Of a stretch of 1,289 bases of DNA, positions 1 through 1,289 are shown piece by piece. The position numbers and the translations under genes were made by a program. The notes under the pieces are model-generated. The model was not told the origin of the DNA. It made no database searches and saw nothing but the letters and a program-made list of their open reading frames with translations. Origin of the DNA: Naegleria gruberi (lineage: Eukaryota); the NCBI GenBank assembly GCA_000004985.1, contig GG739453.1. The stretch is one strand, 5' to 3'. Position 1 is the stretch's first letter. Each line of letters begins with the position of its first letter.

Positions 1-112
1 TAAATGCAACTACTTTTTCTCCTTTAGCCATATCATCTATTACATAACCTATGTATCAACCTTGAACATACAACCCATATCTTCTTGTTGAATAGTATAT
101 TTTGGAGTTTGT

Positions 113-268
113 TCAGATACCATGATCAAATACAATATCTTAAATTGGTGGCAATAAACCAGAGTTGATAATTTCAGTTGATAGTTGGTTGCTTTTGAAC
201 CAGTTAATGCTGGTAAGTCCTTCTGTTCCTCCTTCATACTTGTACTGCACCTTAAAAAATTCCATCAA
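113..268 (-). other. Possible continuation of the same frame beyond TAA 271-269, LMEFFKVQYKYEGGTEGLTSINWFKSNQLSTEIINSGLLPPI-TAA-DIVFDHGI, ending at TGA 115-113. Real only if TAA is decoded as an amino acid. Otherwise this is 3' UTR.
   Basis: 51 codons with one TAA (142-140) and no TGA or TAG. Off-frame stops on this strand are concentrated in a single frame (5, 0 and 1 across the three frames), as expected for coding sequence. Confidence 0.25.
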
Positions 269-1044
269 TTAAAGGTTCTGTAAGCTTTGGAATGTCTGCT
301 TAAATTCTCTAAAGTATTCAAATTCAGATTCTCCTTCAAAACCACCATAATACGTGGTATGAATGATAATACTGTCATTGTCTGCAAACTGTTCTACTGA
401 AACATCTACAAAAGCAGGATCTACAGTTTTGGAAATTACTTCAACTGGTTCACCAATTTTACCATCTGAGTTTACAAGAGTAACGACACTTGAGTTTTTT
501 TACCAACCTGATCTTCTCCTGGAATAGTTTCTCTCAGAGCTTCATTAACCAACTTGAAAATACCATCTTCCTCAACTAACCATTGGAAGGTACATTCTCC
601 CTCAATACCATTTGGCTTTTGAAATGGAAACACCCTCTAACAGGGGTGTAGGAAAGAACCAAATATTGGCATAGTCAGAACTTTCAATCTTGTAGGATTT
701 ACCAGTTCCAACAATTGGAGCATCTTCAATATGATCTGATGGATCAGCAACCTTATTATGTGTCAAAAAGAACTGGCATGTAATTCAAGAAGGATAAATT
801 CTCGATATTGTTTGAACTTAAATCCAAAACTCTCAACAATGGAAATTCAACTTGAATATTTAAAGATTTTGGTCGTTCTCCATTTCTTATGGCATACACA
901 TATTCATAACCAAAGAGTTCATTGAGGTCAAACGTTCCCAACTCGGTATTGCTAATATTTAATTTCTTGTTTGGTGTAAATTTCCATGATCAAGCATACA
1001 GTTTCGGCTGTTTTTACTTGAGATGAAGTAGCAATTTTCTTCAT
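269..1044 (-). CDS. Interrupted protein-coding gene for a hypothetical leucine-rich-repeat (LRR) protein of about 235-255 aa. Start is ATG 1044-1042, stop is TAA 271-269 (standard code). Four internal frame changes, from introns or indels.
   Basis: Minus-strand translation gives five consecutive stop-free segments with coding-like codon usage (GAA, GGT, GTA, GAT, AAG, ACC, TTC, CCA). The ATG at 1044-1042 is the first ATG after in-frame TAA 1065-1063. The terminal stop is TAA 271-269. An LRR consensus is matched exactly in the middle segment. Frame continuity needs four shifts, so the exact exon structure is unresolved. Confidence 0.5.
272..500 (-). CDS. Segment 5 (C-terminal). Translation is (K)NSSVVTLVNSDGKIGEPVEVISKTVDPAFVDVSVEQFADNDSIIIHTTYYGGFEGESEFEYFREFKQTFQSLQNL, then TAA 271-269.
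   Basis: 76 stop-free codons. G-rich first codon position (about 47%). Clearly protein-like. Ends at TAA 271-269. Confidence 0.6.
466..503 (-). other. Candidate 38-nt intron, GTAAAAAAACTCAAGTGTCGTTACTCTTGTAAACTCAG on the minus strand. It would join ...ETIPGEDQV to DGKIGEPVEV...
   Basis: GT at 503-502 and AG at 467-466. Length satisfies the frame change. Its 5' end is GTAAAAA, like the 966..1017 candidate. Alternative: a +1 or -2 indel in the A7/T7 run 495-501. Confidence 0.25.
495..501. repeat. T7 homopolymer (A7 on the coding strand), exactly at a reading-frame discontinuity.
   Basis: Read directly, gagtttttttacc. Frames on either side differ by one base. Confidence 0.9.
502..636 (-). CDS. 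Segment 4. Translation is VFPFQKPNGIEGECTFQWLVEEDGIFKLVNEALRETIPGEDQVG.
   Basis: Open from TGA 765-763 down past 502. Convincing coding codons and peptide. Runs into the T7/A7 homopolymer at 495-501, where the frame must change. Confidence 0.5.
631..648. other. GC-rich inverted repeat CACCC-tctaacag-GGGTG. Potential 5-bp-stem hairpin in an otherwise AT-rich stretch.
   Basis: CACCC at 631-635 and GGGTG at 644-648 are exact reverse complements. Local GC spike. Overlaps a frame-change point. Confidence 0.4.
635..659 (-). other. Candidate 25-nt intron, GTTCTTTCCTACACCCCTGTTAGAG on the minus strand. It would join ...SSDYANIW to VFPFQKPNGIEGE... A 31-nt alternative is 601..631.
   Basis: GT at 659-658 and AG at 636-635. 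Length satisfies the frame change. It contains the GC-rich inverted repeat. Alternative: one extra C in the C4/G4 run 643-646. Confidence 0.2.
641..757 (-). CDS. Segment 3. Translation is NKVADPSDHIEDAPIVGTGKSYKIESSDYANIWFFPTPL... in the frame with codons 758-760, 755-757 and so on.
   Basis: Open from TGA 787-785 to TGA 604-602. Codon usage (GCT GAT CCA ATT GTT GGA ACT GGT AAG) is more coding-like than the alternative open frame over the same bases. Confidence 0.45.
752..773 (-). other. Candidate 22-nt intron, GTTCTTTTTGACACATAATAAG on the minus strand. It would join ...NLSFLNYMP to VADPSDHIEDAPIVGTGK...
   Basis: GT at 773-772 and AG at 753-752. It removes the tandem TAA TAA. Length satisfies the frame change. 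Alternative: one extra base in the T5/A5 run 765-769. Confidence 0.25.
759..989 (-). CDS. Segment 2, LRR region. Translation is SWKFTPNKKLNISNTELGTFDLNELFGYEYVYAIRNGERPKSLNIQVEFPLLRVLDLSSNNIENLSFLNYMPVLFDT.
   Basis: Same frame as the supplied ORF 756..941, extended upstream to TGA 992-990. Codons 839..786 encode LLRVLDLSSNNIENLSFL, an exact fit to LxxLxLxxNxIxxLxxL. The frame ends in tandem TAA TAA at 758-753. Confidence 0.6.
966..1017 (-). other. Candidate 52-nt intron, GTAAAAACAG...CAAACAAG on the minus strand. It would join MKKIATSSQ to KLNISNTELGTFDLNEL.
   Basis: GT at 1017-1016 and AG at 967-966. Length restores the frame (segment 1 to segment 2). A 34-nt alternative is 966..999, GTATGC...CAAG. 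Confidence 0.25.
991..1044 (-). CDS. Segment 1 (N-terminus). Translation is MKKIATSSQVKTAETVCL... The frame hits TAG at 954-952, so it must change before 966.
   Basis: ATG preceded 7 codons upstream by in-frame TAA. The frame is open from 1062 to 955. The downstream LRR frame starts only below TGA 992-990. Confidence 0.35.
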
Positions 1045-1289
1045 AGGAGATTCCGCATCTTCTTAGATCCTGATATTATCAAGAAGGTAAAACAACGTTT
1101 TGCATTAAGAATGAAACAAACCTTGTGGTGCAACTGTTGGAGGCATTTTTTCTTAGTGTTACACAGTAAATTTATTTAGTCTGAGGTTGTGTGTTTTGTG
1201 TAAGTGTATGGCCAAACTTTTCAAAGAAACAGAACAGGTACCTTGAAAAGATTACAATAATAATCAGGTGTCCTTTAACTCTTTAAAGC
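1045..1289 (-). promoter_or_regulatory. Putative 5' flank and promoter region of the minus-strand gene. No element defined. A TATA-like ATAATAT lies at 1079-1073 on the minus strand, about 30 nt upstream of the ATG.
   Basis: Lies upstream of the proposed ATG. The upstream frame contains three TAA/TAG within 40 codons, so coding is unlikely. No long ORF on either strand. The TATA-like element is too close to the ATG unless the 5' UTR is extremely short. Confidence 0.15.
1185..1211. repeat. Imperfect GT-rich (TG)n-like low-complexity tract, CA-rich on the minus strand, in the 5' flank of the gene.
   Basis: ggttgtgtgttttgtgtaagtgtatgg, almost entirely G and T. Confidence 0.5.

What the first reader, a model, noticed from the sequence alone, without database searches (positions are those of the whole stretch)
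269..1044. Protein-coding gene needing four frame changes within about 780 nt, with every segment otherwise stop-free
Each of five minus-strand segments is a clean, stop-free, protein-like ORF piece, but consecutive pieces sit in different frames (using the segment frames listed under features, call the frame of segment 1 B, segment 2 A and segment 3 C; the order is B, A, C, B, C). Every out-of-frame continuation hits a stop within a few codons (TGA 992-990, TAA TAA 758-753, TGA 604-602, TAA 502-500). So the segments look selected for coding while the junctions do not. Two explanations fit. The first is four very short spliceosomal introns, with GT..AG candidates of 52 or 34, 22, 25 or 31, and 38 nt, all of the correct length modulo 3. 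The second is four single-base indels, where removing one base near 969-971 or in the runs at 765-769 and 643-646, or changing the A7 run at 495-501 by +1 or -2, restores one continuous ORF. Introns this short (15-55 nt) are known only from a few lineages such as some ciliates, nucleomorphs and microsporidia. Four homopolymer errors per kb would instead indicate uncorrected long-read or pyrosequencing-type data, or a recently inactivated pseudogene.
Basis: partly seen in the sequence, partly recalled or inferred. Interest (0 to 1): 0.6.

Follow-up and report, generated by a model that had tools for sequence, protein, structure and literature searches.

The report
Decayed Naegleria AIR9-like pseudogene fragment
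The frame-hopping "gene" is a broken, internally deleted copy (a pseudogene) of a cytoskeleton-type gene known intact in the amoeba Naegleria gruberi; only one of the four frame changes is an intron and the rest are deletions, so it is an ordinary finding.

Summary
The minus strand carries stop-free, protein-like pieces in frames that change at the stated places. The cause is neither four tiny introns nor four single-base indels.

A full HMMER scan found an intact homologue: the Naegleria gruberi "leucine rich repeat protein" XP_002673222.1 and a 99%-identical metagenome copy (L002). It is an AIR9-like protein with leucine-rich repeats (LRR) and eight A9 Ig-like stretches.

DNA alignment of the window to L002 (76-82% identity) explains each junction:
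- **J1** is a real intron at a conserved position: 34 nt here, 46 nt in the homologue.
- **J2** is an 11-nt deletion.
- **J3** is compound: deletions of 1, 14 and 98 nt.
- **J4** is a net 1-nt deletion.

The window also lacks 1050 nt and a net 168 nt of coding sequence. Two TAA codons sit where the homologue has GAA.

Ka/Ks is 0.14, so the pieces look coding because inactivation was recent relative to divergence. Verdict: a non-processed pseudogene from a Naegleria-like genome. Low interest.

The parts
1122..1146 (-). Exon 1 remnant, with start codon ATG at 1146-1144 (MPPTVAPQ-)
   Evidence: Aligns to L002 376-400. N. gruberi XP_002673222.1 begins MPPTIAPQG.
1070..1121 (-). Intron 1 (52 nt, GTTTGT...ATCAG), conserved in position and length with the homologue
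   Evidence: L002 intron 401-452 is also 52 nt. Splicing L002 there reproduces the annotated N-terminus.
1000..1069 (-).
   Evidence: GATGC-GGAATC in the window against GATGCCGGAATC in L002.
966..999 (-). An 18-nt deletion at 997/996 removed the homologue's AAG|GTAAGT donor, and a GT from the former Val codon now sits in phase.
   Evidence: L002 intron 530-575 is 46 nt, with the same acceptor before AAATT(G/A)AATATTAG.
770..965 (-). Exon 3, N-terminal region plus the first LRR (KLNISNTELGTFDLNELFGYEY...NIENLSFLNYMPV), frame f0
   Evidence: 86% amino-acid identity to P0001 residues 1-57. Weak LRR Pfam hits.
769..770 (-). Junction 2: an 11-nt deletion (TTAAACATTTA in the homologue), changing frame f0 to f1
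746..769 (-). FLTHNK(VA) codons in f1.
   Evidence: TTTTTGACACATAATAAG is 18/18 identical to L002 780-797.
745..746 (-). Junction of a 1050-nt (350-codon) deletion. It removes most of the LRR region, the linker and the first half of the first A9 domain.
   Evidence: Window 746 aligns to L002 803 and window 745 to L002 1854. Outgroups have residues across the whole gap.
669..745 (-). C-terminal half of A9 domain 1 (DPSDHIEDAPIVGTGKSYKIESSDY), frame f1
   Evidence: 82% DNA identity to L002 1854-1964. tblastn match.
640..668 (-). Stretch whose ancestral frame is f0 (QYLVLSYTPV). It is bounded by a 1-nt deletion (669/668) and a 14-nt deletion (640/639) that together restore f1. It is stop-free in f1 by luck.
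610..616 (-). Junction 3 proper: deletions of 6 and 92 nt (98 nt in total), changing frame f1 to f2. They remove the end of A9-1 and the start of A9-2.
499..610 (-). A9 domain 2 core (GIEGECTFQWLVEEDG...PGEDQVGKK), frame f2
   Evidence: 77% amino-acid identity to P0001 502-540. Pfam IG_AIR9.
492..498 (-). Junction 4: a net 1-nt deletion just after the A7 run, changing frame f2 to f1
   Evidence: GGTAAAAAAACTCAAGTGTCG in the window against GGTAAAAGGCTAAAATGTGTTG in L002. The A9 profile runs through only with a 1-nt frame fix.
309..491 (-). End of A9-2 and first half of A9-3 (VVTLVNSDGKIGEPVEV...YYGGFEGESEFEYFR), frame f1, with in-frame 9-nt and 6-nt deletions
   Evidence: 71% amino-acid identity to P0001 544-608..
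264..308 (-).
   Evidence: Outgroups have all 68 residues here.
1..263 (-). Continuation of the pseudogene (A9-4: KVQYKYEGGTEGLTSINWF...DDMAKGEKVVAF). It carries nonsense TAA 142-140 (GAA in the homologue), a 2-nt deletion at 124/123 and a net 2-nt insertion at 53-44.
   Evidence: 77% DNA identity to L002 2636-2896.

Best explanation
The window is a fragment of a non-processed pseudogene. It is a decayed, internally deleted copy of the AIR9-like LRR/A9-repeat gene that is intact in Naegleria gruberi (XP_002673222.1, 1462 aa). The source is a Naegleria-like genome of about 34% G+C.

The copy keeps the parent's start codon and both 5' introns, so it arose by genomic descent or duplication, not by retroposition. 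It evolved under purifying selection for most of its divergence from the N. gruberi gene, then lost function. Since then it has accumulated mostly deletions:
- Frameshifting: 1, 11, 1, 14, 98, net 1 and 2 nt deleted, plus a net 2-nt insertion.
- Large: 1050 and a net 168 nt, in addition to the 98 nt above.
- Two GAA-to-TAA nonsense changes, and loss of the original intron-2 donor.

The segments still look like clean ORF pieces because inactivation is recent relative to the divergence. Few point substitutions have therefore landed in them.

Of the four flagged frame changes, J1 is the conserved intron 2. J2, J3 and J4 are deletions.

No full-length protein can be made. At most, translation from ATG 1044 with intron 2 spliced would give a peptide of about 86 aa ending at TAA 758.

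**Shown:** the homology, the lesions, the intron conservation, and Ka/Ks. **Inferred:** non-functionality, the timing, and the Naegleria source.
For: - **Family and homologue.** The HMMER scan of 1.84 billion representatives gave P0001 as best hit (E 1.3e-32). P0001 is 99% identical to N. gruberi XP_002673222.1. Pfam gives IG_AIR9 358.7 bits in 8 stretches, plus LRRs.
- **DNA alignment.** The intact gene's DNA (L002) aligns to the window in four collinear blocks of 76-82% identity, separated by gaps of 1050, 137-versus-25 and 213-versus-45 nt.
- **Lesions.** The base-level alignment and indel table are. Two window TAA codons align to GAA.
- **Introns.** Splicing L002 at the 52-nt and 46-nt introns reproduces the annotated N. 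gruberi N-terminus. The window has homologous introns of 52 and 34 nt.
- **Selection.** dN 0.099, dS 0.725, omega 0.137, with differences at codon positions 31/20/94 in the homologue's frame across all blocks.
- **Relaxation on the window branch.** Window-specific amino-acid changes number 22, against 11 gruberi-specific. They include loss of conserved TPV and PVR motif residues.
- **Polarity of the deletions.** Willaertia, N. lovaniensis and other homologues have residues through all three regions missing from the window, so the deletions are derived.
- **Junction 4.** The A9 profile scores about 24 bits through J4 with a 1-nt frame fix, against 12.9 bits with the 38-nt intron.
- **Frame-corrected translation.** It reaches IG_AIR9 55.4 bits, above the 27.5 cut-off.
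- **Composition.** G+C of about 34% matches N. gruberi at 33% (PMC8296547).
Against: - **Lesion load versus decay time.** The overall omega of 0.14 and the modest 22:11 rate asymmetry (chi-square about 3.7) imply only roughly 20-35 neutral substitutions since inactivation. Against that stand 8 frame-disrupting indels and 3 large deletions. This indel-to-substitution ratio is higher than is usual for pseudogenes. Either deletion pressure is strong in this genome or some small indels are sequencing errors.
- **Source unknown.** The source contig and organism could not be identified. Read support, an intact paralogue or orthologue in the same genome, synteny and expression are all untested.
- **Short window.** The window is only 1289 nt, so the 3' two-thirds of the gene are unseen.
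Confidence: 0.85

Rival explanations
1. Sequencing or assembly artefact. The source organism has an intact gene, and the frame changes and missing blocks come from long-read indel errors and collapse or mis-joining of the A9 repeats in a short, low-coverage contig.
For: - Nearly all differences in length are deletions. Three or four of them are 1-2 nt, some at short runs: CC to C at 1056/1055, one after the A7 run at 498-492, and AA lost at 124/123.
- The gene is internally repetitive, with 8 A9 stretches.
- The contig is short and has no counterpart in the collections searched.
- The lesion load is high for the low omega.
Against: - Deletions of 11, 14, 18 and 98 nt in non-repetitive sequence are not typical read errors.
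- The 1050-nt gap joins the LRR region to the middle of an A9 domain, not repeat to repeat.
- Two GAA-to-TAA substitutions, and the window-specific loss of conserved motif residues, are not indel errors.
- The substitutions keep a strong third-position bias. That argues for real divergence rather than noise.
Confidence: 0.08
2. A functional gene with four (or more) ultra-short spliceosomal introns of 22-52 nt.
For: - GT..AG candidates of the right length modulo 3 exist at every junction.
- One of them (34 nt, 999-966) is a real conserved intron.
- A second 52-nt intron lies upstream.
- Naegleria genes do have introns down to about 30 nt (PMC8296547).
Against: - The candidate introns at J2, J3 and J4 align to coding sequence of the intact homologue, with 18/18 identity at J2.
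- Removing the 38-nt candidate halves the A9 domain score.
- Splicing cannot repair the exon-2 frameshift, the in-frame TAA codons, the two downstream frameshifts or the truncated Ig-like domains.
- A 22-nt intron is below the shortest length used for Naegleria gene models.
Confidence: 0.02
3. Programmed recoding: ciliate-style +1 frameshifting at stop codons, -1 slippage on the A7 run, or a variant genetic code with TAA/TAG read as sense.
For: - Three of the four changes are +1, and each old frame ends at a stop: TAT-TAG, ACA-TAA and TAT-TGA.
- J4 lies next to an A7 run.
- Two in-frame TAA codons sit within otherwise continuous homology.
Against: - No single genetic code opens the frame.
- Homology switches frame at the deletion points (770/769, 669/668, 640/639, 616-610), not at the stop codons.
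- The double +1 reading at J4 scores 13.5 bits, against about 24 bits for the frame fix.
- GGT AAA AAA ACT is not an in-phase X XXY YYZ heptamer (read directly from the sequence).
- The closest relative is Naegleria, which uses the standard code. Its intact gene has GAA where the window has TAA.
Confidence: 0.01

Closest known systems
Naegleria gruberi 'leucine rich repeat protein' XP_002673222.1 / EFC40478.1 (1462 aa) and its 99%-identical metagenome copy P0001 on L002
   Same: - Same gene lineage: about 81% amino-acid identity over 274 alignable codons and 76-82% DNA identity.
- Same start codon context.
- Same two 5' introns at the same positions and phase.
- Same order of LRR and A9 repeats.
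   Different: - The window copy lacks 1050, 98 and a net 168 nt of coding sequence.
- It has 8 frame-disrupting indels and two premature TAA codons.
- It has a shortened intron 2 with the original donor lost.
- dS of about 0.73 means it is not the same allele or strain.
AIR9 / AIR9-like microtubule-associated proteins (Arabidopsis AIR9, Trypanosoma brucei TbAIR9; Pfam PF23197 IG_AIR9)
   Same: The parent gene has the defining architecture: N-terminal LRRs followed by tandem A9 Ig-like repeats. [quoted passage not shown] A plant AIR9 is retrieved with E 3e-79.
   Different: Identity to plant AIR9 is only 24-26%. No function has been tested in Naegleria. The window copy cannot encode the full architecture.
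Non-processed (duplicated or unitary) pseudogenes
   Same: It retains introns and 5' context. It carries frameshifts, nonsense codons and a deletion bias. There are signs of relaxed constraint on its own branch.
   Different: Whether it is a unitary pseudogene in a sister species or a dead paralogue beside an intact copy is unknown. The indel load is high relative to the inferred neutral substitutions.
Ultra-short introns of ciliates, nucleomorphs and microsporidia
   Same: One short (34 nt) GT..AG intron is present, and a 52-nt one lies upstream.
   Different: These are ordinary Naegleria-type introns conserved with a 46-nt and a 52-nt intron in the homologue. The other three candidates are coding remnants.

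Membership tests
AIR9-like LRR/A9-repeat gene family (Pfam PF23197 IG_AIR9 + LRR) | A9 Ig-like domain match above Pfam's gathering score | tested here: met
   The frame-corrected conceptual translation scores 55.4 bits against a cut-off of 27.5. The raw uncorrected segments each score below the cut-off, at 14-23 bits. The parent P0042 scores 358.7 bits in 8 stretches.
AIR9-like LRR/A9-repeat gene family (Pfam PF23197 IG_AIR9 + LRR) | N-terminal leucine-rich repeat region | tested here: inconclusive
   Only one LRR survives, with LRR_4 at 18.6 bits, below the cut-off of 27. The homologue has LRR_4 at 45 bits over residues 72-203. The remaining LRRs lie in the 1050-nt deletion.
AIR9-like LRR/A9-repeat gene family (Pfam PF23197 IG_AIR9 + LRR) | Continuous ORF encoding the multi-repeat protein | tested here: not met
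   No genetic code gives a continuous frame. There are 8 frame-disrupting indels and 2 premature stops relative to the intact gene.
Non-processed pseudogene | Clear homology to a gene that is intact elsewhere | tested here: met
Non-processed pseudogene | Disabling lesions (frameshifts, nonsense codons, domain-breaking deletions) in the ancestral reading frame | tested here: met
   Indel table. TAA against GAA at two codons. Deletions cut A9 domains mid-fold and are derived relative to outgroups.
Non-processed pseudogene | Retention of the parent's introns and 5' context (not a retrocopy) | tested here: met
   Introns at 1121-1070 and 999-966 are homologous to L002 introns 401-452 and 530-575.
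Non-processed pseudogene | Relaxed selective constraint on the pseudogene branch | tested here: inconclusive
   Pairwise omega is 0.137, which mostly reflects the shared functional history. The relative-rate count is 22 against 11 in the expected direction, but only borderline.
Non-processed pseudogene | No functional product (not translated into the full protein) | not testable with these tools
   Needs RNA-seq or proteomics from the source organism.
Ultra-short spliceosomal introns at all four junctions | The removed sequence is non-coding, so homologues do not align through it | tested here: not met
   Met only for J1 (999-966). The J2, J3 and J4 candidates align to homologous codons, and the A9 score drops to 12.9 bits when the 38-nt piece is removed.
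Programmed ribosomal frameshifting (Euplotes-type +1 at stops; -1 slippery heptamer) | Homology changes frame exactly at the stop codon or slippery site, and orthologues share the site | tested here: not met
   Frame switches coincide with deletion points relative to the intact, unshifted homologue. The double +1 model at J4 scores 13.5 bits. There is no in-phase X XXY YYZ motif at the A7 run (read from the sequence).
Homopolymer sequencing-error artefact | Lesions confined to 1-2-nt indels in homopolymer runs, with no nonsense substitutions | tested here: not met
   Deletions of 11, 14, 18, 98, 168 and 1050 nt, plus two GAA-to-TAA changes. Read-level support was not testable.

The most novel reading that the evidence does not exclude
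The copy is not simply dead. One reading is a lineage-specific, still expressed remnant: for example, an 86-aa single-LRR peptide from ATG 1044 with the regenerated 34-nt intron spliced, or a regulatory or antisense transcript of the intact AIR9-like gene. Another reading is that its unusually high ratio of deletions to substitutions reveals a strong, fast deletion process that removes dead genes in Naegleria genomes.
Probability: 0.04. Interest if true: 0.4.

Novelty: new member of a known kind. Interest (0 to 1): 0.1.

Why it matters
It matters mainly as a cautionary case for annotation. In AT-rich protist DNA, GT..AG pairs of any required length are easy to find. A young pseudogene can therefore mimic a gene with exotic tiny introns or recoding. 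Comparison with an intact homologue settles the question.

It also records a decaying copy of the AIR9-like cytoskeletal gene in a Naegleria-like lineage. That is of minor interest for gene-family turnover and for estimating deletion bias in heterolobosean genomes.

Tried and rejected
1. **Ciliate hypotheses.** I considered code 6 (TAA/TAG read as Gln), Euplotes TGA=Cys with +1 shifting at stops, and Stentor or Paramecium-size introns. These are rejected. No code opens the frame, and the nearest relative is Naegleria with an unshifted intact gene.
2. **Word-index protein search.** The search with the concatenated conceptual protein found nothing, although P0001 shares a 25-residue exact run with the query. 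I treat this as a tool sensitivity limit, not as evidence of absence.
3. **Locus scans.** The viral and metagenome scans were empty. A metagenome DNA pattern across the 1050-nt deletion junction gave no match.
4. **Clostridia hit.** The genome-contig scan returned a Clostridia MAG DUF4838 protein seeded on NELFGYEY. I rejected it as a chance match, with 24/71 identities that are mostly the seed itself.
5. **Source look-ups.** Exact look-ups of four window ORFs to find the source contig all failed.
7. **RNA genes.** tRNA and Rfam scans found nothing.
8. **Neighbouring gene.** I compared the 140 nt upstream of the ATG with L002 for synteny. Only a 14-nt exact match turned up, which is inconclusive.
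Full report
**Observation**

Five stop-free, protein-like pieces lie in frames f2, f0, f1, f2 and f1, where f is the offset in the reverse complement.

The listed GT..AG candidates exist and have the right length modulo 3.

In this AT-rich DNA, long open stretches are not rare. In 21 of 1000 dinucleotide shuffles, stop-free runs of 50 codons or more covered as much of one strand as observed. The tiling alone is therefore weak evidence. Homology is what proves a coding origin.

Deleting a base in the run 643-646 runs into TAG 639-637.

**First leads**

Pfam gave weak hits to LRR in segment 2 and to the AIR9 A9 Ig-like domain (PF23197) in segments 4 and 5 and in two further pieces below 269.

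I initially suspected a ciliate, with variant codes, Euplotes-type +1 shifting at stops, or tiny introns. No genetic code opens the frame.

I then scored alternative conceptual joins against the A9 profile:
- With a one-base frame fix at junction 4, the domain runs through to profile position 87 at about 24 bits.
- With the 38-nt intron removed, the score is 12.9 bits.
- With two successive +1 shifts, the score is 13.5 bits.

**Finding the homologue**

Several searches failed:
- The word-index protein search with a concatenated protein found nothing.
- The viral and metagenome locus scans found nothing.
- A genome-contig hit to a Clostridia DUF4838 protein was a chance seed on NELFGYEY.

The exhaustive HMMER scan with the exact segment window:272-499:- gave 41 hits. 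The best was P0001 (1420 aa, E 1.3e-32). P0001 is 99% identical to Naegleria gruberi NEG-M XP_002673222.1, annotated 'leucine rich repeat protein', 1462 aa. The next closest are Willaertia magna and N. lovaniensis proteins at 41-44% identity.

P0042 carries LRRs at residues 72-203 and IG_AIR9 in eight stretches, 358.7 bits. That is the AIR9-like architecture known from plants and excavates (PMC3488599).

tblastn of P0001 against the window maps its residues as follows:
- Residues 1-57 to frame f0.
- Residues 417-466 to f1.
- Residues 502-540 to f2.
- Residues 544-608 to f1.
- Residues ~676-766 to f1/f2/f1.

These matches run at 60-86% identity.

**DNA-level anatomy**

The contig carrying the intact P0001 gene was retrieved as L002 (6287 nt, gene at 600-4862). 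The window aligns to it in four collinear blocks:

| Window (minus strand) | L002 | Identity |
|---|---|---|
| 1151-746 | 371-803 | 76% |
| 745-636 | 1854-1964 | 82% |
| 610-309 | 2102-2422 | 76% |
| 263-3 | 2636-2896 | 77% |

A global alignment and indel table give the following features, in order along the gene:
- ATG at 1146.
- Intron 1 at 1121-1070, 52 nt. The L002 intron at 401-452 is also 52 nt.
- A 1-nt deletion in exon 2 at 1056/1055.
- Intron 2 at 999-966, 34 nt here against 46 nt in L002 (530-575). An 18-nt deletion removed the homologue's AAG|GTAAGT donor and left a GT from the former Val codon in phase.
- An 11-nt deletion at 770/769.
- A 1050-nt (350-codon) deletion at 746/745.
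- A 1-nt deletion at 669/668 and a 14-nt deletion at 640/639. These compensate each other, so 27 nt between them are read out of the ancestral frame yet stay open.
- Deletions of 6 and 92 nt at 616-610.
- A net 1-nt deletion at 498-492.
- Several in-frame deletions of 3, 9 and 6 nt.
- A net 168-nt deletion within 308-264.
- A 2-nt deletion at 124/123.
- A net 2-nt insertion at 53-44.

Two window TAA codons, at 271-269 and 142-140, align to GAA codons in the homologue.

Splicing L002 at the two introns reproduces exactly the annotated N. gruberi N-terminus, MPPTIAPQGSKKMPESPMKKKALSSQPKKVETVKKLNISNTELGTF. Both intron positions are therefore real and conserved.

**The four junctions**

- **J1** is the conserved intron 2.
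- **J2** is the 11-nt deletion.
- **J3** is compound, made of deletions of 1, 14 and 98 nt.
- **J4** is a net 1-nt deletion.

**Are the deletions derived?**

Willaertia, N. lovaniensis and two further homologues have residues across all three regions missing from the window. So the window lost this sequence; N. gruberi did not gain it.

The deletions cut A9 domains mid-fold. For example, the 1050-nt deletion ends inside the first A9 domain, which spans P0042 residues 423-508. It is hard to see them as a tidy shorter isoform.

**Selection**

Over 281 gap-free codons, read in the homologue's frame, dN is 0.099, dS is 0.725 and omega is 0.137. Differences at codon positions 1/2/3 number 31/20/94, and the pattern is similar in every block.

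Most of the divergence therefore accumulated while both copies were functional. That explains why the pieces still look selected for coding.

With outgroups, the window branch carries 22 lineage-specific amino-acid changes against 11 on the N. gruberi branch. They include losses in the conserved TPV and PVR motifs. This is in the direction expected for relaxed constraint, but it is only borderline significant.

**Conclusion**

The best explanation is a non-processed pseudogene of the Naegleria AIR9-like gene. Its introns and start context are retained, and inactivation was recent relative to its divergence from N. gruberi NEG-M. G+C (34% against 33%) and intron sizes fit Naegleria (PMC8296547).

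**Caveats**

Eight frame-disrupting indels plus three large deletions are many for the small number of neutral substitutions implied. Either deletion pressure is strong, or a few of the 1-2-nt indels are sequencing errors.

The source contig could not be found. Read support, presence of an intact copy in the same genome, synteny and expression are all untested.

A pure artefact explanation is unlikely. It would have to account for the 11, 14, 18 and 98-nt deletions in non-repetitive sequence, the two nonsense substitutions and the motif losses.

**Novelty**

This is an ordinary pseudogene of a known family, and of low interest. Its main value is as a caution: in AT-rich DNA, GT..AG pairs of any needed length can be found, so a young pseudogene can mimic tiny introns or recoding.

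Noticed in passing
Exon 2 itself carries a 1-nt deletion at 1056/1055.
   Followed up: yes
window 1-268 (minus strand): Homology to the intact gene continues to the very end of the window. This stretch has two more frameshifts (124/123 and 53-44) and a TAA (142-140) where the homologue has GAA.
   Followed up: yes
window 640-668 (minus strand): A 1-nt and a 14-nt deletion compensate each other. The 27 nt between them are read in a frame different from the ancestral one (QYLVLSYTPV is in f0), yet they remain stop-free in f1. This is why segment 3 looked like one clean piece.
   Followed up: yes
window 1209-1289 (plus strand); L002 ~147-160: ATGGCCAAACTTTTCAAAGAAACAGAACAG is followed by a 30-nt GT..AG and more open frame. 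It could be the start of a divergently transcribed neighbouring gene. A 14-nt exact match (CAAACTTTTCAAAG) also lies upstream of the intact gene in L002, hinting at conserved synteny.
   Followed up: partly
L001 8352-8651 (Clostridia MAG contig CAYXWN010000043.1): A bacterial DUF4838 protein shares the octapeptide NELFGYEY with the window, and the locus scan returned it as a 'relative'. The rest of the alignment is weak, so it is a chance seed.
   Followed up: yes
tool behaviour: The word-index protein search missed P0001, although P0001 shares a 25-residue exact run (NIQVEFPLLRVLDLSSNNIENLSFL) with the query. Only the exhaustive HMMER scan found the homologue.
   Followed up: no
window-wide lesion count against substitutions: The ratio of indel events to inferred post-inactivation substitutions is unusually high, roughly 0.3-0.8, with almost all events being deletions. 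This suggests either a strong deletion bias in this genome or some sequencing-error contribution.
   Followed up: partly
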